This document shows, piece after piece, positions 20,889 to 46,830 of a stretch of DNA of 47,754 bases. This stretch comes from a virus. Taxonomy: Duplodnaviria > Heunggongvirae > Uroviricota > Caudoviricetes. Under the pieces are notes generated by a model. It was not told the origin of the DNA, ran no database searches, and saw only the letters and a list, made by a program, of their open reading frames with translations. How positions within the stretch are numbered: the first letter of the stretch is position 1; the number at the start of each line of letters is the position of its first letter. The stretch lies in IMG/VR virus record IMGVR_UViG_2778261224_000004, one strand, 5' to 3'. The translations under genes and the position numbers were made by a program.

Positions 20889-21449
20889 TTATTCTTCCTG
20901 CTTAATAAATCGGGATTCCTGGAGCGCCTGAAGCGCAAAATTAATCTCGTCTTCAATAATGCGCTCGATCTCCCTGGCTGTTTTGCCTTCACAACGGGGA
21001 GCTGCTCTTGGAGCAATACTAAATAAGCGGCTACGCAATTCATTAGCTGCCAGAAATGCATCATCCCTGACCGCATCTTTAGCGATGAGAGAGCCTTCCT
21101 TTTCTTCAAATTCAAGGCGTTTCAGCTTTGCCTGATAAATTTTTTCTGCGGTCTTAGCCTTGTTGAATTGCACCGCAACACCGGAAGTACCACCAGCTAA
21201 TCCGGCATCATCAGCGGGTAACTCTGGTTGTTCCGAAGATATCCCATGCCCTCTTTTTCCATTTTCAGCAGATACCTCACGACCAACCTGTCGGCTCGCT
21301 TCATAAGCCGCACTGGCTTTATCAAAATCCAGCTTGCCGCTTTTCAGCACTGGAATGCGACCGGAACGACAGAGCTTCGTAACCATTGCCGGAGAAATAC
21401 CTTTCCGGCGGGCAAACTCTGACTTACTGACGATGGCCATTACTTGCAA
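20889..21449 (-). CDS. Terminase small subunit (Nu1-like, N-terminal HTH)
   Basis: 186-aa ORF directly upstream of large terminase; N-terminal HTH-like SKSEFARRKGISPAMVTKL. Confidence 0.6.
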   Translation of the reverse strand: MQVMAIVSKSEFARRKGISPAMVTKLCRSGRIPVLKSGKLDFDKASAAYEASRQVGREVSAENGKRGHGISSEQPELPADDAGLAGGTSGVAVQFNKAKTAEKIYQAKLKRLEFEEKEGSLIAKDAVRDDAFLAANELRSRLFSIAPRAAPRCEGKTAREIERIIEDEINFALQALQESRFIKQEE

Positions 21450-22030
21450 CCATTAGCAAGATACTGAACAAATCCCTCATGCGTTTCATGCGCGTCGTGG
21501 TACTGACGATAAACATCCAGCAACAATGCAATTTCCATATCCGTCGCGGGAATACGTTCTTTATCAATAGCCAGGTACTTAATTTGAACAACAGGGGAAG
21601 AATTATCGTCTTCTTCCTGCGGCTGTTCATCGCTTAACATTTCGTCAAGCTCTGCATCATTAAACCCAAGCAGATCAATATCAAAATCATCATCCATTAA
21701 CTCTTTGACTTCTTCGGCCAGAAGCTGCATATCCCAGCCAGCATTTAAGGCCAGCTTGTTATCTGCAATCCTGTAAGCCTTCTTCTGTTTTTCAGAAAGG
21801 TTACTCAACCGAATCGCCGGAACTTTATCCATTTCCAGAATTTCGGCTGCTGCAAGCCGCCCATGCCCCGCAATCAGTTCATTCTTTTCATCGATCAGCA
21901 CAGGATTAGTGAAACCGAACTCACGGATACTGTTCACCAACTGTTCAACTTGCTCATCTGAATGAGTCCGTGAATTTTTGGCATATCTGAGCAACTTACC
22001 GACTGGTAAATATTCGATTTTTAGAGCCAT
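21440..22030 (-). CDS. ParB-like nuclease domain (ParB/Srx fold) protein
   Basis: 196-aa ORF; motif ..YAKNSRTHSDEQVEQLVNSIREFGFTNPVLIDE..LIAGHGRLAAA..; paralog of 24697..25320. Confidence 0.7.
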   Translation of the reverse strand: MALKIEYLPVGKLLRYAKNSRTHSDEQVEQLVNSIREFGFTNPVLIDEKNELIAGHGRLAAAEILEMDKVPAIRLSNLSEKQKKAYRIADNKLALNAGWDMQLLAEEVKELMDDDFDIDLLGFNDAELDEMLSDEQPQEEDDNSSPVVQIKYLAIDKERIPATDMEIALLLDVYRQYHDAHETHEGFVQYLANGCK

Positions 22031-23323: not shown

Positions 23324-24703
23324 CTACTTAATCAACGGCCGGAAAGCCGCCAGCACATCATCAGATCGTCCGATTGTTGAACCACCAGGCAACGGCAACT
23401 CAAACTCAAAACGAACAGCTTTCTCCAGACTCGCCCAACTAAGGGAATCATCGTTAATAACGTGCAAATACCAGCTCTTACAGTTGAATATTGACCGCTT
23501 AATCCTGAAACCATGTACACGACACAACTGCTTCACTTCATCATCAGAGTGAAACTTCTGGTAAAACCAGTGCCCCTTCCGGTACAACGCGGTAAAACCG
23601 TTATGATCAATAAAATAAAGCCGGCTTTTGGAACTCGCAGCTTGTGTTTGCTTCAGGACTGTTTCCAGCTCTCCACGGCTACGGCCAGAAAAGAATATTG
23701 ACCCACCAGCTTTACACAAGCCTTTCAGAACCGTCAGAACGGACCATTCAGCCTCGACACTATCGACCGAGTTCAAAACGCTATCGCAAATCACGTAGTC
23801 GTAACGCCCTCGCGTTTTTAAGTCGTCCACCAGCGTATCAATCATCCGGTTTGTTGCGGTCCTATCCAGAGTGTTTCCAGCGCCCTTACGGCGGAAAAGC
23901 TCGAGATCATGCAGGTTATATCCCTTTGCCCTGAGCATTCGCGCGTAGTCTCCCTGCCCCGAACCAAAATCAATTCCTCTTGGCGTCTTGGCAACGATCG
24001 GGAGGATCAACGACTCATACAGATTTGATTTCAGGCTGCCACCATTACGCAACCGCATAAGCTGCGCATACGTCTGGATGTATGTTGTTTTCTCCAGATG
24101 AGAATACTCAAATACACCATAAGTTTTATTCAGATAACTTTGGTATTTTTCCTTCTCAACATCAGGGATCACAAACACCGTTAGCGGTGTGCGCGTCATT
24201 TTCGCTGCTAATGCATACTGAGCACAGTGAATAACCTCACCAGACTGAGTAGCAACACAACCACCCCACGGACCATACTTGATAACCAGTTCCGCTATGT
24301 TCTTTCGAACATATGCCATTTTCGCGCGCATATTGCCTGAGATCTGGCTTGCCGATACCTGAACAAAACCATGCTTATCTTCCAGACCGGACACCCTGCA
24401 ACGCTCATCTCCGCTATCAAAATCCGTTCCGTTATGCAGTTGGTTAAACCGTACTTCGTCGTATACCGTCGTTTCACAGGGCAACACATACACCGCAGCA
24501 CGCGTTATTCCCAACTTACGTAGCGCCTTCGTCCTTTGGTGTCCCGCCACCAGCAAATCGCCGCGCACTATCAATGGCTTCACAAGCCCCAGCTCCCTGA
24601 CGCTTTCCGCCAGCCTCGCAAGATCATCCTCACCGATAAAACGCGGGTTATATTCCGCGCCGCGTAGGTGCGTTATGTCGTAATTGAGGTGAAGCATCAG
24701 CAC
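23324..24703 (-). CDS. ParB-like N-terminal domain fused to a class I SAM-dependent methyltransferase domain
   Basis: 459-aa ORF; N-terminal ParB-like ..LVAGHQRTKAL..; C-terminal Rossmann methyltransferase motif I GIDFGSGQGDYA and motif II-like YDYVICDSVL; no DPPY/DPPW or PCQ motif seen. Confidence 0.65.
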   Translation of the reverse strand: MLMLHLNYDITHLRGAEYNPRFIGEDDLARLAESVRELGLVKPLIVRGDLLVAGHQRTKALRKLGITRAAVYVLPCETTVYDEVRFNQLHNGTDFDSGDERCRVSGLEDKHGFVQVSASQISGNMRAKMAYVRKNIAELVIKYGPWGGCVATQSGEVIHCAQYALAAKMTRTPLTVFVIPDVEKEKYQSYLNKTYGVFEYSHLEKTTYIQTYAQLMRLRNGGSLKSNLYESLILPIVAKTPRGIDFGSGQGDYARMLRAKGYNLHDLELFRRKGAGNTLDRTATNRMIDTLVDDLKTRGRYDYVICDSVLNSVDSVEAEWSVLTVLKGLCKAGGSIFFSGRSRGELETVLKQTQAASSKSRLYFIDHNGFTALYRKGHWFYQKFHSDDEVKQLCRVHGFRIKRSIFNCKSWYLHVINDDSLSWASLEKAVRFEFELPLPGGSTIGRSDDVLAAFRPLIK

Positions 24704-25320
24704 ACCTCCCCAGCCAGCAATGCGGATACAAATCCGATATAGCTGCCATTATCATCAACATAACGAGACACCGCGCAGTCAAAACGATCCGCTTCCTCAT
24801 CCGTTGCCGGGATTTTATGACCTCCAAATGACAGGTACTGAACTTTTACGCCTGATTTGGCCTCATCCTTCTCAAATGGGATATCCATACCCTCTGTGTC
24901 ATCGTAGACCGCCGCACTCAATAAGTTATCCAGTTCGCGCTGAGTAAAACCAATTGAGTCCAGAGAAAAATCATCGGCCGCAAGATCTGCAAGCTCCGCG
25001 CTTAACAACTCTTCATCCCAACCAGCATTCAGCGGAATACGGTTGTCGGCCAGACGATATGCCTTCTTCTGATTCTCCGTTAGCCCAGCCAGAACAATGC
25101 AGGGAACATCATCCATCCCCAACTGAGTGGCCGCAGCAATTCGACCATGACCAGCAATTACAACGTTGTTCTCGTCTATCAGGATCGGATTAGTCCATCC
25201 GTACTCCTGTATGCTGGCAACAATCTGATCTACCTGCTCCACGGAGTGTGTGCGAGCGTTCTTTTCATAACCAATCAACACAGAAAGTGGTAAAGAAACC
25301 ACATTAAGTTGTTTTGTCAT
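24697..25320 (-). CDS. ParB-like nuclease domain (ParB/Srx fold) protein
   Basis: 207-aa ORF; ..YEKNARTHSVEQVDQIVASIQEYGWTNPILIDE..VIAGHGRIAAA.. Confidence 0.7.
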   Translation of the reverse strand: MTKQLNVVSLPLSVLIGYEKNARTHSVEQVDQIVASIQEYGWTNPILIDENNVVIAGHGRIAAATQLGMDDVPCIVLAGLTENQKKAYRLADNRIPLNAGWDEELLSAELADLAADDFSLDSIGFTQRELDNLLSAAVYDDTEGMDIPFEKDEAKSGVKVQYLSFGGHKIPATDEEADRFDCAVSRYVDDNGSYIGFVSALLAGEVC

Positions 25321-26828: not shown

Positions 26829-26902
26829 CCCATGTTCTCCTTTGTCTGGATGTAAAAAAGCCCCGGCAATTGCCGAGGCTCGTTGTTCGTTATCGTTACG
26901 GT

Positions 26903-27103
26903 TTAATGCTCGCGTCGTCCGGCGACAACTTCGGATTTGTATTTCAGGTCGCCCAGCAAGAATTGCAGTTTAAGCATCTTTGCCGCCGTGTAGTTCCCTG
27001 ATTCCACAACCTCTTTCATGAGGTCATAAACGGCCGCTACATCATCAGCCAGGAACTCTTTGCGTTGCTGCTCAGTCGCACGTTTGAAGGAAATACGCAT
27101 CAC
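26903..27103 (-). CDS. Hypothetical protein
   Basis: 66-aa ORF, ATGA overlap with upstream gene. Confidence 0.4.
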   Translation of the reverse strand: MMRISFKRATEQQRKEFLADDVAAVYDLMKEVVESGNYTAAKMLKLQFLLGDLKYKSEVVAGRREH

Positions 27104-27369
27104 TCATCATCTCCTGCCGCACATACAACCTCACAAAAAAAATCAGCAGAATGTTTCTCCTTGAACGAATGACGCTCAAAACCGCACTCAATATCAGGCG
27201 CAAAAACATCCACCACATACGGTCTTTCAGAATGTTTGTTTTCCCAACGATAAACCGTAGTGACGTTGAAATGTTTTAACGCTTCACGGAACTCAACGCT
27301 GCCCGTCAGGTTTTTTGAGGTCAGGTATTGCAGGAGGTTTTTTACTACTTCACGGTCTTGTACTTTCAT
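27100..27369 (-). CDS. Hypothetical protein, first gene after repeat copy A
   Basis: 89-aa ORF; GGAG RBS 8 nt upstream of ATG inside the conserved 112-bp cassette. Confidence 0.45.
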   Translation of the reverse strand: MKVQDREVVKNLLQYLTSKNLTGSVEFREALKHFNVTTVYRWENKHSERPYVVDVFAPDIECGFERHSFKEKHSADFFCEVVCAAGDDE

Positions 27370-27478
27370 CGGGTTATCTCCGGTTTAACCAGGGCGGGTA
27401 TCGCTCGGTTTCGGGTATAACCATAGGAAATTTTTTCCCATCTGTAAAGCACTTTTTATATAAATCTATAATTATATA
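27367..27478 (-). promoter_or_regulatory. Conserved ~112-bp promoter/leader cassette, copy A
   Basis: More than 95 percent identical to 34245..34355 and 43156..43267; contains AT-rich motif, TTTACA-N17-TATGGT promoter-like hexamers, leader and RBS. Confidence 0.55.
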
Positions 27479-27481
27479 ATT

Positions 27482-28069
27482 CTATGACACTTGCCAGAGA
27501 GCATCATGCAACTGGATACCTCCGTTGCACTGGTTGCCCCAGCCATGCCAGCCATCAGGTAAATCACCGCGAGCAAACAGCTCAATACGAGGAACATCGC
27601 CTAACAGCTTTACCAGCTTGTCACGGACCACATCAGGCTTCCGAGAATGCTCCAGACGAGGCGATGTAAACGACTGAATGATCCCCGCATCAAGACGTGT
27701 CGGTAGTTTGCCTTTCACTGCAAACAAGCAATCTTCACTGTTTGCACGAGTCATATGCCCCATCCCCATCACCAGCTTATCTGGTTGTCGGCTACCACAT
27801 TTGTTCCATGTGAAGCCCTTCATGGTCATCAGCCTGAATCCCCATGCTTTCACCACCAGCAACGCTTCTTCTGGCTGAGTCGGAACCCACCACATGGCCA
27901 ACAAACACGATTCAGGATTAGCAAGCTGCCAGACAGGAATACGAGCAATATCCTCAGCTTTCATCGTTGGATACTTAAAACCAGCGCCACGATTCCCATC
28001 CTTACACTTGTCTTTGTATTCCCAGGGGGGATCTGCATAAATCAGATTAAACAATGCAATTGCCTCCAT
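27482..28069 (-). CDS. MT-A70-family N6-adenine DNA methyltransferase
   Basis: 195-aa ORF with catalytic motif YADPPWEY near the N-terminus. Confidence 0.7.
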   Translation of the reverse strand: MEAIALFNLIYADPPWEYKDKCKDGNRGAGFKYPTMKAEDIARIPVWQLANPESCLLAMWWVPTQPEEALLVVKAWGFRLMTMKGFTWNKCGSRQPDKLVMGMGHMTRANSEDCLFAVKGKLPTRLDAGIIQSFTSPRLEHSRKPDVVRDKLVKLLGDVPRIELFARGDLPDGWHGWGNQCNGGIQLHDALWQVS

Positions 28070-28376
28070 GTTAGTTGTGTCTCCGGCGCTTATCTCCGGC
28101 AGTCATAACGCTGGCCAGCTCTACAGCAAACACAACGAAAAGGGCGCTAACCAGACTGATTAATGCCCTTGCCTGTTGTGTGCCGGATATCGCCCGACAA
28201 CGCTGTTTTGGTAACACGGCTACAGTTCCGTGCCGCTCCAGCTTTTACCCCTTTGCGGATAACAGGCCCTGCCTGTAACTTAGCCCCACGTTCGCCCGAA
28301 ATGCGCACCAGGCACGCATAAAGATGAGCACGAAGAAGTAACTCCACCGCGCTTATCTTTATGTGTGAGAGTGAAT

Positions 28377-28452
28377 TGGTGGCCCCTACCGGATTTGAAC
28401 CGATGACCGTGCGATTATGAGTCGCCTGCTCTAACCACTGAGCTAAGGGGCC
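28377..28452 (-). tRNA. tRNA with CAT anticodon (Met or lysidine-type Ile2), encoded CCA end
   Basis: Hand-folded cloverleaf GGCCCCTTAGCTCAGTGGTTAGAGCAGGCGACTCATAATCGCACGGTCATCGGTTCAAATCCGGTAGGGGCCACCA: 7-bp acceptor stem, D arm, anticodon loop CTCATAA, T loop TTCAAAT. Confidence 0.85.
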
Positions 28453-28461
28453 ATATTTGAT

Positions 28462-28545
28462 TTGTTTGTCTGGTGTGGCGCCGCGCACGAAAATCCCAGC
28501 CAATAAATTCAGGATTTTTGGGCGCGGCGGCATATCAGACAAACA
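28462..28545. repeat. 84-bp imperfect palindrome (nested inverted repeats) next to the tRNA 5' end
   Basis: Inner arms 28477-28496 and 28512-28530 (about 19 bp, GC-rich), outer arms 28462-28472 and 28536-28545. Confidence 0.5.
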
Positions 28546-28621
28546 TGGTTGATGCGTGCGCCCATGAGAAAAGCGCATAGAATGTTGTAACTATATATTT
28601 ATATAATTATAGAAATATATA

Positions 28622-33123: not shown

Positions 33124-33179
33124 TTATATAAATATATAATTCTATATATGGCGGGAGACGTCCCGCCGTAGGCTTACTG

Positions 33180-34247: not shown

Positions 34248-34355
34248 CAGATTTCTCCGGTTTAACCAGGGCGGGTATCGCTCGGTTTCGGGCATAACCA
34301 TAGGAAATTTTTTCCCACCTGTAAAGCACTTTTTATATAAATCTATAATTATATA
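34245..34355 (-). promoter_or_regulatory. Conserved ~112-bp promoter/leader cassette, copy B (immediately downstream of Q-like gene)
   Basis: Near-identical to copies A and C. Confidence 0.55.
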
Positions 34356-34416
34356 TTTATAGATTTTCGATGTTCCCGATGTCTACACACCATCAAAACA
34401 GCTCAAAATGACACTT

Positions 34417-38069: not shown

Positions 38070-38089
38070 AAGCGGGCTAACGCCCGCTT
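38070..38089 (+). terminator. Hairpin (candidate terminator) after the 124-aa ORF
   Basis: AAGCGGGC-TAAC-GCCCGCTT perfect 8-bp stem; downstream tract AT-rich rather than a clean T run. Confidence 0.45.
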
Positions 38090-38200
38090 ATATGATTATA
38101 GATTTATATAATTATATAAAACGCTTTTCATCAGCCAAAAAGTTGGTTATGCTTACCTCGTTCTATAAATATAGATTTATAGAATTATATAACCAAACAC
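38085..38200 (+). promoter_or_regulatory. Two copies of the AT-rich ATTATAGATTTATAtAA motif upstream of parA (promoter/centromere candidate)
   Basis: Motif at about 38090-38115 and 38165-38190; a third copy lies upstream of parG at 38861-38900. Confidence 0.45.
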
Positions 38201-45852: not shown

Positions 45853-46830
45853 TTAATGTTGGAGTGATTTCCAGGTCTTTCTTAACCTGTTATAACGCTG
45901 CTCAACGAGGGATCGTAAATATGCAAGGTCAGCTCCAGGATACATGCCATCAGCAAATTCCTGGCTAACCTCTCTAGTGATTTGATGACGAAGTTCGGCC
46001 TCTCCCTTTTCCCGAACAAGACGCGCAGCTCTCTCCGCTGCTTTCTGTTTTGCCTTTATCTCTCTGGCCGTCTTCCTCTGATGCCATACATTCTCCATCT
46101 GCTCCTGAATAACAATACGCTTATAATCAGCCTCCGTTATCGCTTTTTTAAGCCGTTCGCTATTCTTCGCATTGAAGTAATTAAGTTTCTGGCTAACCGC
46201 ACGTCTCCATGCTTGTTCAGTAATACCAACGGTTTCCAGCAGTTGATCACGAATCTCTATTTTCGCTGGCCAATACTGTTTATTCACCCGATCCCAGCGA
46301 CGTTCATAATCAATAAAACCTAACGCTTTCAGTTGCGACAATGCCCTTGTACAGCGCGTTATAGACTTGTTCCCAGCTTCGGATACGGTAGACAGGCCGC
46401 AAAAATCAGCCAACGCCTCAGCACTGGCCAGAACCCGCTTAGAAATGATGTTTACATGGTGCAAAATCGCAGCGATCACAGCATTAATCGCCCGACGACG
46501 ATGCTCGTTTATCCGGCGCTTCCGCTCTGACGGTTGATTAACGTAGAACGCAACCTCACACGTAAGATCACGCCCATTAATGCGCTGTAAAGCATCAGAT
46601 AACACCAGCGGCAGCTTGTGCGTATGGTGCTTTGGAGGCTGGAACTCCGGCGACAAATTACAAACGTAAGCTGAACGTAGAGACGGCATTGGTCTATCCA
46701 TATGTTCGCTCTTGCGTCCACGGAAAACCAACGTATAATGGGAGTTGTCGAGGCGCCCATGGTTAGTTGTTGGTTTTCCGTGGATGTCGCAAGAAGCCCG
46801 CAGATTTATCTGCGGGCTTTTTGTTTCCAT
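45853..46830 (-). CDS. repA: Plasmid replication initiator RepA, IncFII (RepFIIA)-like; true start probably internal (Met 46701 or 46692)
   Basis: 325-aa ORF; ..FCGLSTVSEAGNKSITRCTRALSQLKALGFIDYERRWD.. resembles the RepA1 core as recalled; the N-terminal 43 codons overlap the antisense-RNA/leader structures. Confidence 0.6.
   Translation of the reverse strand: METKSPQINLRASCDIHGKPTTNHGRLDNSHYTLVFRGRKSEHMDRPMPSLRSAYVCNLSPEFQPPKHHTHKLPLVLSDALQRINGRDLTCEVAFYVNQPSERKRRINEHRRRAINAVIAAILHHVNIISKRVLASAEALADFCGLSTVSEAGNKSITRCTRALSQLKALGFIDYERRWDRVNKQYWPAKIEIRDQLLETVGITEQAWRRAVSQKLNYFNAKNSERLKKAITEADYKRIVIQEQMENVWHQRKTAREIKAKQKAAERAARLVREKGEAELRHQITREVSQEFADGMYPGADLAYLRSLVEQRYNRLRKTWKSLQH
46746..46826 (+). 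ncRNA. Candidate CopA-like antisense RNA opposite the repA leader
   Basis: Plus-strand TTGCGT-N16-TATAAT (46712-46739) and, about 80 nt downstream, terminator GCCCGCAGA-TTTA-TCTGCGGGC plus TTTTGTTT (46796-46826); perfect 15-bp inverted repeat 46718-46732 / 46768-46782 in the leader. Confidence 0.5.

What the first reader, a model, noticed from the sequence alone, without database searches (positions are those of the whole stretch)
27482..28069. MT-A70-type adenine methyltransferase next to the tRNA, a likely anti-restriction function
The 195-aa protein has the catalytic YADPPWEY motif. Together with the ParB-methyltransferase fusion the element carries two unrelated methyltransferases, suggesting investment in DNA modification against host restriction systems.
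Basis: established knowledge. Interest (0 to 1): 0.4.

Follow-up and report, generated by a model that had tools for sequence, protein, structure and literature searches.

The report
Phage-plasmid MT-A70 adenine methyltransferase gene
The gene is a real, intact and conserved MT-A70-type adenine methyltransferase on an E. coli phage-plasmid, already annotated as such in public records, but experiments on its closest studied relatives point to GATC (Dam-like) DNA methylation or ribosomal RNA methylation rather than to an anti-restriction role.

Summary
Window 27482..28069 (minus strand) encodes a 195-aa protein with YADPPWEY. It is a full-length MT-A70 match (Pfam E=4e-23), and its model superposes on METTL3 and MTA1. 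The gene is under strong purifying selection (pN/pS 0.02-0.06). It is found in about as many plasmids of this ~47-49 kb E. coli phage-plasmid family as the terminase gene (58 each). RefSeq already names the identical protein "MT-A70 family methyltransferase".

The anti-restriction interpretation is not supported. There is no nuclease partner, so it is an orphan. Bacterial relatives tested alone in vivo (41-42% identical, and about 73% if M.EcoGV resembles the Stx-phage copies compared here) methylate GATC, which the Dam+ hosts already modify. The Stx-phage enzyme M.EcoPA8orf6770P is weak and non-specific alone. With an upstream partner, PNB-2, it prefers 16S rRNA and raises prophage induction. 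The window protein lacks that partner, every other partner type seen, and the C-terminal tail.

The neighbouring "tRNA-Met" is really tRNA-Ile2, and the linkage is confined to close relatives. The ParB fusion carries a generic class I methyltransferase domain, not a recognisable DNA methyltransferase.

My best guess is a partner-less Dam-like DNA adenine methyltransferase. Its substrate and role remain untested. Ordinary; low interest.

The parts
27482..28069 (-). MT-A70-family N6-adenine methyltransferase gene (195 aa; possible alternative TTG start at 28054 giving 190 aa). DPPW is at aa 13-16.
   Evidence: Searches cover ORF, family and fold. One search gives pN/pS 0.02-0.06. Searches find the gene in 58 plasmids, the same number that carry the family's terminase at >=80% coverage. 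One search shows the RefSeq annotation WP_000387270.1.
28070..28376 (-). Leader between the tRNA and the methyltransferase. It contains a RefSeq-annotated 48-aa ORF (28071..28217) that is probably not a gene. About 230 nt are roughly 90% conserved in a sister lineage.
   Evidence: the few substitutions among close relatives are mostly non-synonymous in the 48-aa frame. L008 and L009 conserve the DNA without 3-periodicity, and a ~35-nt indel breaks the ORF; in L009 the frame has a different start and runs into the methyltransferase gene; no Pfam or PHROG hit.
28377..28452 (-). Neighbouring tRNA. It is tRNA-Ile2 (anticodon CAU, the kind read as AUA after lysidine modification), not tRNA-Met. It is a neighbour, not a functional partner.
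   Evidence: Searches find the tRNA. One search shows G1-C72 paired, so it is not an initiator. One search shows RefSeq labels it tRNA-Ile and it is 89.5% identical to the chromosomal copy. One search gives AUA at 16.3 per 1000 codons and 26% of Ile codons. One search shows the linkage only in close relatives.
28592..28621 (.). AT-rich palindromic iteron (TCTATAATTATATAA type, contains TATAAT) upstream of the tRNA. It is a candidate promoter or operator for the tRNA-methyltransferase unit.
   Evidence: 17 matches with up to 2 mismatches against 0.17 expected; inverted repeats I2/I3 with the copy at 27456-27486; no terminator-like site on the minus strand between here and the methyltransferase gene.
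27370..27480 (-). First of three near-identical ~105-nt promoter/operator/5'UTR units (the others are at 34248-34360 and 43159-43270). It lies immediately downstream of the methyltransferase stop and faces orf89 and orf66.
   Evidence: -35 TTTACA and -10 TATGGT at 27448..27420; alignment of the three copies.
26903..27369 (-). Two small ORFs (89 aa at 27100..27369 and 66 aa at 26903..27103) that keep their position after the methyltransferase gene in the sister lineage. They are followed by an intrinsic terminator at 26858-26881. They are untested candidates for an alternative partner.
   Evidence: phrog_6143 and phrog_6621, function unknown; synteny in L009, 45% identity for orf89; terminator.
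23324..24703 (-). Its domain is a generic class I SAM methyltransferase and its substrate is unknown. It sits in a ParB-terminase locus with two more ParB_N proteins (24697..25320 and 21440..22030).

Best explanation
The ORF encodes a catalytically intact N6-adenine methyltransferase. It belongs to the bacterial and prophage branch of the MT-A70 family, the subfamily of M.EcoGV and M.EcoPA8orf6770P. It is a short version without a partner.

Shown: full-length MT-A70 domain, DPPW motif, METTL3/MTA1-like fold, strong purifying selection, orphan status, and presence throughout a phage-plasmid family.

Inferred:
- It binds S-adenosylmethionine and methylates adenine in nucleic acid.
- It lacks any PNB-2-type specificity subunit and the C-terminal tail thought to bind one. 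It therefore most likely acts alone as a Dam-like DNA adenine methyltransferase.
- GATC is the most probable site, possibly with low specificity.
- It would act on the replicating phage-plasmid DNA, co-transcribed with the tRNA downstream of the lysis genes and upstream of the ParB-terminase packaging module.

In Dam+ hosts such an activity would keep fast-replicating phage DNA fully methylated, or would serve regulation or packaging. It would not defeat the host's restriction systems.
For: Family and catalytic integrity:
-. Foldseek against PDB gives METTL3 E=1.5e-14 and TM 0.71, and also hits MTA1c and METTL4.
- The C-terminal motifs S-x-KPD, IELFxR and WGNQ are conserved with MTA1 and are invariant or nearly so among 36 homologues.

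The gene is functional and core to the element:
- pN/pS is 0.02-0.06.
- 58 plasmids carry the gene, against 58 that carry the terminase at >=80% coverage.

Orphan status: there is no nuclease domain in the neighbouring ORFs.

DNA and GATC:
- BZS1_p32 is 42% identical. Expressed alone in dam- E. coli it methylates GATC. M.EfaBMDam of Tn1549 does the same (PMC7556043).
- M.EcoGV, described as 'highly similar' to the phiPA8 enzyme, methylates GATC in vivo when overproduced, and REBASE annotates similar proteins as GATC enzymes (PMC10810198).

No partner:
- tblastn finds no PNB-2, PerC-like, ANR or DUF7740 homologue in the window.
- The protein ends about 30 aa before the phiPA8/Stx86 type. This matches the paper's remark that a shorter isoform occurs without PNB-2.

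Transcription: there is no terminator-like site on the minus strand between the lysis genes, the tRNA and the methyltransferase gene. The nearest one lies downstream at 26858-26881.
Against: - Purified M.EcoPA8orf6770P is 73-74% identical in the phiPA2 and Stx86 copies compared. It had no GATC-specific or other significant DNA activity in vitro. Its authors warn that GATC methylation by overproduced M.EcoGV may be off-target.
- The GATC-specific BZS1_p32 and phiES15 proteins carry a ~23-aa insertion in the variable loop after TW-K. That insertion is absent here, so their specificity cannot simply be transferred.
- No methylation data exist for this protein.
- Expression timing is inferred from gene order only.
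- GATC is under-represented in the window (observed/expected 0.62), but I have no comparison set, so this is uninformative.
Confidence: 0.4

Rival explanations
1. RNA methyltransferase. Like phiPA8 M.EcoPA8orf6770P, it would be the catalytic subunit of a holoenzyme that methylates 16S rRNA or another stable RNA and tunes the switch from the plasmid-prophage state to lytic growth. Here it would use an unrecognised partner, for example the conserved downstream orf89 or orf66, or a ParB_N protein.
For: - A relative 73-74% identical in the copies compared prefers 16S rRNA in 30S subunits, by more than 13-fold over DNA, when bound to PNB-2. It raises spontaneous induction, and the DPPW->APPA mutant loses the effect (PMC10810198).
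- The nearest solved structures are the RNA enzymes METTL3 and METTL4 and the DNA enzyme MTA1.
- In other lineages the gene is preceded by a small overlapping ORF of varying family: PNB-2, PerC-like (fused in P0009), ANR or DUF7740. This suggests a general design of catalytic subunit plus adaptor.
- The order methyltransferase-orf89-orf66 is kept in the sister lineage.
Against: - No PNB-2 or other known adaptor is present, and the C-terminal tail proposed to bind PNB-2 is missing.
- The 48-aa upstream ORF does not behave like a gene.
- The rRNA claim itself rests on SAM-consumption assays, and no modified base was mapped.
- orf89 and orf66 have their own promoter unit and no recognisable nucleic-acid-binding domain.
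Confidence: 0.25
2. It would be an orphan DNA adenine methyltransferase with a non-GATC or relaxed specificity. It would pre-methylate progeny phage DNA so that it escapes Type I, II or III restriction in the next host, in the manner of M.EcoGII or Hia5.
For: - The gene is an orphan on a temperate mobile element and is conserved.
- The protein is a bare catalytic core, with no separate target-recognition domain and no loop insertion. The phiPA8 subunit alone is weakly active and non-specific on DNA and RNA.
- Non-specific prophage adenine methyltransferases are known (PMC5778455; PhiOS31_p25).
- Close relatives include ParB_N-MT-A70 fusions (3 of 10 long representatives; phrog_21315). The window carries three ParB_N proteins. 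This is in line with the proposal that methyltransferases of ParB-terminase loci modify DNA during packaging (PMC4738411).
Against: - No tested bacterial MT-A70 member has shown a protective non-GATC specificity.
- M.EcoGII-type enzymes belong to a different family, with DPPY, FxGxG and 349 aa.
- Anti-restriction is inferred only from the gene being an orphan.
Confidence: 0.2
3. An inactive remnant with no present function.
For: Many prophage methyltransferases give no detectable motif in methylome studies.
Against: All catalytic and cofactor motifs are intact, pN/pS is 0.02-0.06, and the gene is retained in as many plasmids of the family as the terminase.
Confidence: 0.03

Closest known systems
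M.EcoPA8orf6770P (phiPA8 gp5) and M.EcoGV, the MT-A70 enzymes of Stx2 prophages
   Same: The phiPA2 and Stx2-phage-86 copies are 73-74% identical over aa 5-177. They share the DPPW core and a temperate enterobacterial phage setting, and they are orphans.
   Different: The Stx-phage enzymes have a ~30-aa longer C-terminus and an overlapping upstream partner gene, PNB-2 (143 aa), that directs activity to 16S rRNA. They lie next to int in the early-left region. The window protein has no PNB-2 and a short, unrelated C-terminus. It lies between the lysis and packaging genes of a phage-plasmid.
PhiBZS1_p32 (Serratia phage vB_SspM_BZS1) and M.EfaBMDam (Tn1549), the GATC-specific 'Dam-like' MT-A70 DNA methyltransferases
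   Same: They belong to the same Pfam family and the same bacterial clade. BZS1_p32 is 42% identical over 90% of the length. They are small orphan enzymes of mobile elements.
   Different: BZS1_p32 and phiES15 carry a ~23-aa insertion in the variable loop that is missing here. BZS1_p32 is preceded by an ANR-family small ORF and lies next to xis and int.
M.EcoGII / M.EcoGI, the non-specific prophage adenine methyltransferases
   Same: They are beta-class amino-methyltransferases of E. coli prophages, silent in lysogens, with a proposed protective role.
   Different: They belong to a different family: 349 aa, DPPY and FxGxG motifs, and a central target-recognition domain. They are an analogy only.
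Eukaryotic MT-A70 enzymes: METTL3-METTL14, METTL4 and ciliate MTA1c
   Same: They share the fold (TM about 0.7 over ~186 columns) and the DPPW and SAM-binding motifs.
   Different: They are 22-27% identical. They work as obligate heteromers with extra RNA- or DNA-binding subunits. The window protein is the bare ~190-aa core.
Phage Dam enzymes of P1 (Dmt) and T4 (my own knowledge, not tested here)
   Same: They are phage-encoded GATC methylation in a Dam+ host. In P1 this is linked to packaging-site cleavage.
   Different: They belong to unrelated methyltransferase classes. No cluster of GATC sites like a P1 pac site was found near the terminase; the only cluster is at 42429-42540.

Membership tests
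MT-A70 family (Pfam PF05063; beta-class N6-adenine methyltransferases) | The profile match is above the curated threshold and spans the whole domain. | tested here: met
   82.6 bits against a cut-off of 23.9, profile positions 1-172 of 172, residues 7-180.
MT-A70 family (Pfam PF05063; beta-class N6-adenine methyltransferases) | The catalytic motif IV, DPPW, lies near the N-terminus of the domain (circularly permuted order). | tested here: met
   D13-P14-P15-W16 follows the first strand. P14 and W16 are invariant and D13 and P15 at least 90% conserved in 36 homologues. The motif aligns with DPPW of MTA1.
MT-A70 family (Pfam PF05063; beta-class N6-adenine methyltransferases) | The three-dimensional fold is that of the METTL3/MTA1 methyltransferase domain. 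| tested here: met
   The AlphaFold2 model has pLDDT 84.4. Foldseek against PDB gives METTL3 E=1.5e-14 and TM 0.71, MTA1c E=1e-13 and METTL4.
MT-A70 family (Pfam PF05063; beta-class N6-adenine methyltransferases) | SAM-dependent methyl transfer to N6 of adenine. | not testable with these tools
   Biochemistry is needed. Relatives tested: PMC7556043 and PMC10810198.
M.EcoPA8orf6770P-PNB-2 type 16S rRNA methyltransferase holoenzyme | A PNB-2 specificity subunit is encoded directly upstream and co-transcribed. | tested here: not met
   tblastn of phiPA2 PNB-2 against the window gives a best E of 5.2. The upstream 48-aa ORF is unrelated and probably not a gene.
M.EcoPA8orf6770P-PNB-2 type 16S rRNA methyltransferase holoenzyme | The full-length C-terminal tail (last ~27 aa), proposed to be needed for the holoenzyme. 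| tested here: not met
   The alignment stops at residue 177 of the 210-aa Stx86 protein. The window protein ends 14 residues after WGNQC, with unrelated sequence.
M.EcoPA8orf6770P-PNB-2 type 16S rRNA methyltransferase holoenzyme | A close catalytic-subunit homologue. | tested here: met
   73-74% identity over aa 5-177.
Dam-like GATC-specific bacterial MT-A70 enzymes (M.EfaBMDam, BZS1_p32) | Homology to the characterised members. | tested here: met
   42% identity to BZS1_p32, E=1e-48.
Dam-like GATC-specific bacterial MT-A70 enzymes (M.EfaBMDam, BZS1_p32) | A shared variable-loop insertion (a candidate recognition element) between TW-K and the MG-G motif. | tested here: not met
   The ~23-aa insertion is present in BZS1_p32 and phiES15 and absent in the window protein and its close relatives. 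I infer its role in recognition; this has not been shown.
Dam-like GATC-specific bacterial MT-A70 enzymes (M.EfaBMDam, BZS1_p32) | Methylation of GATC. | not testable with these tools
   The test would be DpnI/MboI digestion or SMRT sequencing after expression in a dam- host.
Orphan anti-restriction methyltransferase of a mobile element | No cognate restriction endonuclease next to the gene. | tested here: met
   The neighbouring ORFs have no nuclease or restriction-enzyme domain in Pfam, PHROGs or PADLOC.
Orphan anti-restriction methyltransferase of a mobile element | The methylation protects the element's DNA from restriction in a new host. | not testable with these tools
   Plating assays of wild-type and deletion phage on restricting hosts are needed. 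Data on relatives do not point this way.

The most novel reading that the evidence does not exclude
The short MT-A70 core without a partner is not a plain Dam copy. One possibility is that it recruits a new, unrecognised adaptor: the syntenic orf89 or orf66, or one of the three ParB_N proteins, as suggested by the ParB_N-MT-A70 fusions among relatives. It would then methylate a stable RNA or slide along DNA, and so set the induction or packaging decision of a phage-plasmid. The other possibility is that it is a minimal ~190-aa adenine methyltransferase of relaxed specificity.
Probability: 0.15. Interest if true: 0.5.

Novelty: already known. Interest (0 to 1): 0.2.

Why it matters
As written, the finding adds little. 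The identical protein is already annotated in dozens of RefSeq plasmids, and its subfamily has been studied at the bench.

The useful correction is that 'orphan phage methyltransferase = anti-restriction' should not be assumed for this subfamily. One close relative is reported to be an rRNA methyltransferase that controls prophage induction, and relatives tested alone copy the host's Dam specificity. If the version here, which has no partner, proved to have its own substrate or adaptor, it would help settle two questions. First, how MT-A70 catalytic cores acquire specificity. Second, whether phage-plasmids use nucleic-acid methylation to regulate their life cycle.

Tried and rejected
1. I first recalled M.EcoGIX or M.EcoGII as the likely Stx-phage relatives. 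The papers show that M.EcoGIX is a plasmid-borne single-strand-specific enzyme and M.EcoGII a DPPY beta-class enzyme of 349 aa. Neither is MT-A70.

2. M.EcoMIV of ST131 prophages is a PF02086 enzyme and is not related.

3. A functional link between the tRNA and the methyltransferase is rejected. The tRNA is absent within 3 kb in 24 of 28 related viral loci. It is a tRNA-Ile2, explained by the high AUA usage of the late genes, and the methyltransferase gene itself has no AUA codon.

4. The 48-aa upstream ORF as a PNB-2-like partner is rejected. Its substitutions are mostly non-synonymous, an indel and a changed start and stop occur in L008 and L009, and there is no family hit.

5. I tested whether the conserved leader upstream of the methyltransferase is a widespread RNA element.
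   - Rfam gives only sub-threshold hits: rydB 24.8 bits against 50, and miRNA-like hits on the hairpin.
   - Scans of viral and genome contigs with conserved cores found only the same phage-plasmid lineage, plus 21-34-nt matches that are not next to MT-A70 genes.
   - The conservation may simply reflect a recombination mosaic.

6. GATC statistics gave nothing decisive. Observed/expected is 0.62, and there is no cluster near the terminase.

7. Literature searches for the protein accession and for 'phage-plasmid' plus 'MT-A70' found nothing.

Full report
**Observation.** The window has an ORF at 27482..28069 on the minus strand (ATG start, 195 aa) whose residues 11-18 read YADPPWEY.
- The protein matches Pfam MT-A70 (PF05063) over the whole profile, positions 1-172 of 172, at 82.6 bits against a cut-off of 23.9, E=4e-23.
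- It also matches phrog_359 'DNA methyltransferase' (E=1e-102) and a PADLOC Type II methyltransferase model (E=8e-69).
- A TTG at 28054 with a GGAGG 8 nt upstream is an equally plausible start (190 aa). It matches the N-terminus of homologues and some annotations.
- A tRNA gene lies 307 nt upstream on the same strand.

**Context.** The window is almost a complete ~47-49 kb E. coli phage-plasmid.
- It carries myovirus-type structural genes, a lysis cassette, a ParA gene and an IncFII-type RepA.
- It is 99.7% identical over 24 kb to non-mobilizable plasmids such as NZ_LR130559.1.
- A 2.2-kb stretch around the gene is 98% identical to Yersinia phage vB_YpM_39.
- RefSeq already annotates the identical gene as 'MT-A70 family methyltransferase', WP_000387270.1.
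- In PLSDB the gene is found in 58 plasmids, and the family's terminase gene in 58 at >=80% coverage.
- Between alleles that differ by 2-3% in DNA, nearly all changes are synonymous (pN/pS 0.02-0.06).

It is a functional core gene of the element.

**The protein.**
- An AlphaFold2 model (pLDDT 84.4) superposes on the METTL3 methyltransferase domain (E=1.5e-14, TM 0.71), ciliate MTA1c and METTL4. Sequence search of the PDB gives the same families.
- DPPW and the C-terminal S-x-KPD, IELFxR and WGNQ motifs are conserved.
- The protein is essentially the bare catalytic core.
- The only poorly modelled and variable part is the loop after TW-K (aa ~90-105). Relatives carry alternative sequences, insertions or even an intein-like insert there.
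- The family is very large: 11,370 representatives of 50%-identity clusters at E<=0.001.
- No neighbouring ORF has a nuclease domain, so it is an orphan.

**What relatives do.** Three lines of bench work bear on function.

1. Serratia phage BZS1_p32 is 42% identical. Like Tn1549 M.EfaBMDam, it methylates GATC when expressed alone in dam- E. coli (PMC7556043). BZS1_p32 and phiES15 have a ~23-aa loop insertion that is absent here.

2. M.EcoGV of the O104:H4 Stx phage methylates GATC in vivo when overproduced (as cited in PMC10810198).

3. Gong, Chakraborty and Koudelka (PMC10810198) studied M.EcoPA8orf6770P. Its phiPA2 and Stx2-phage-86 copies are 73-74% identical to the window protein over aa 5-177.
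   - Alone it uses SAM weakly and without substrate preference, and it shows no GATC activity in vitro.
   - With PNB-2, a 143-aa protein encoded just upstream, it forms a 1:1 complex that prefers 16S rRNA in 30S subunits.
   - It raises spontaneous prophage induction, and a DPPW->APPA mutant loses the effect.
   - The authors note a shorter isoform that lacks the last 27 aa and occurs without PNB-2.

**The window version.**
- It lacks the C-terminal tail.
- The window encodes no homologue of PNB-2. It also encodes none of the other small ORFs that precede the gene elsewhere: PerC-like in the 78%-identity prophage clade and fused in P0009, ANR in BZS1, and DUF7740 in phiES15.
- The RefSeq-annotated 48-aa ORF that abuts the start codon does not behave like a gene.
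- The only conserved companions are two small downstream ORFs with their own promoter.

**Interpretation.** I rate the family assignment and enzymatic competence as near certain.
- *Substrate.* Every member expressed alone in vivo gave GATC, and the rRNA activity needs a partner that is missing here. A Dam-like DNA adenine methyltransferase is therefore my best guess (0.4).
- *Anti-restriction.* This is not supported by any datum. GATC methylation is redundant with host Dam in E. coli, Yersinia, Klebsiella and Salmonella, and the one biological phenotype known in the subfamily is regulatory.
- *Expression.* The gene order suggests expression with or after the lysis genes: lysis genes, tRNA, methyltransferase, then the ParB-terminase packaging module, all on one strand with no terminator before 26858-26881. 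This is inference.

- The 'tRNA-Met' is a tRNA-Ile2. G1-C72 is paired. It is 89.5% identical to the chromosomal tRNA-Ile(CAU) of 5424 of 5426 E. coli genomes, and RefSeq labels the identical copy tRNA-Ile.
- This tRNA fits the element's AUA usage of 16.3 per 1000 codons and 26% of Ile codons, highest in the tail genes. From memory, that is about four times the E. coli level.
- The tRNA-methyltransferase linkage is seen only in this phage-plasmid lineage and one sister locus.
- The ParB fusion (23324..24703) is unrelated in sequence to the MT-A70 protein. Its C-terminal domain lacks an amino-methyltransferase motif. Its model (pLDDT 92.4) matches small-molecule and tRNA class I methyltransferases, with no DNA methyltransferase in the top 50.
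- Such ParB-Methyltransf_23 fusions are known to be enriched in phages, and their function is untested (PMC12704722).

'Two DNA-modifying enzymes' is therefore not established.

**Novelty and score.** The gene is already annotated and its subfamily has been studied. The finding is ordinary. Its one point of interest is that this is the short form without a partner, in a subfamily whose substrate (DNA or rRNA) is currently disputed.

Noticed in passing
window 28377-28452 (-): The tRNA that ARAGORN and the Yersinia phage records call tRNA-Met is an AUA-decoding tRNA-Ile2 (CAU anticodon, G1-C72 paired). It is 89.5% identical to the chromosomal copy in nearly all E. coli genomes. The element uses AUA for 26% of its Ile codons, mostly in tail and baseplate genes.
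   Followed up: yes
window 27370-27480, 34248-34360, 43159-43270 (all read leftward): There are three near-identical ~105-nt units. Each has an AT-rich iteron, a -35 TTTACA, a -10 TATGGT and a conserved 5'UTR with a GGAGA ribosome-binding site. They lie in front of orf89/orf66, the DUF3560 gene and a 126-aa ORF, which suggests one co-regulated set of three operons.
   Followed up: partly
window 27465-27479, 28592-28621, 33124-33139, 34342-34363, 38088-38192, 38869-38883, 43254-43268: The 15-mer TCTATAATTATATAA and its variants occur 17 times with up to 2 mismatches (0.17 expected). All but one copy lie between genes, and they are clustered upstream of parA. Inverted copies bracket the tRNA-methyltransferase module, and copies lie on both sides of the DUF3560 gene. 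They may be binding sites of the partition protein (the 82-aa ORF at 38913-39161) or of the prophage repressor. This was not tested.
   Followed up: partly
window 28463-28545 and 28313-28367 (-): Long hairpins flank the tRNA. The upstream one has 34-nt arms that are 85% complementary, and the downstream one has 27-nt arms. The 383-nt stretch folds with z = -5.6, but it includes the tRNA itself. No Rfam family reaches threshold.
   Followed up: partly
window 28070-28300 (-); L008 and L009: About 230 nt of non-coding DNA upstream of the methyltransferase gene are roughly 90% conserved in a sister lineage whose methyltransferase protein is only 76% identical. Similarity drops right at the start codon. 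This is either a regulatory leader or a recombination boundary where methyltransferase alleles are swapped.
   Followed up: partly
window 21440-22030, 23324-24703, 24697-25320 (-): Three ParB_N (ParB/Srx) proteins lie just upstream of the terminase genes, one of them fused to a class I methyltransferase domain. Relatives of the MT-A70 protein elsewhere are themselves fused to ParB_N (3 of 10 long representatives checked).
   Followed up: partly
L011 2697-2996, P0009, L084 1310-1492, L085 1194-1502, L091 2561-2992: In other prophage lineages the MT-A70 gene is preceded by a small ORF that overlaps it or ends within a few bases of its start. The family of this ORF varies: PerC-like (also found fused to MT-A70), ANR, DUF7740 or PNB-2. 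This points to interchangeable adaptor subunits for this methyltransferase core.
   Followed up: partly
window 45853-46830 (-), 38201-38869 (+), 44000-44400: The window is a phage-plasmid. It combines an IncFII-type RepA, a ParA partition gene and a RelE/ParE toxin-antitoxin pair (as annotated in the near-identical plasmid NZ_LR130559.1) with a full myovirus gene set. About 58-60 close relatives are in PLSDB, and three were isolated as Yersinia pestis phages.
   Followed up: partly
window 42429-42540: This is the only tight cluster of GATC sites in the window, with 4 sites in 112 bp, in or near a small helix-turn-helix gene. GATC is under-represented overall (observed/expected 0.62).
   Followed up: no
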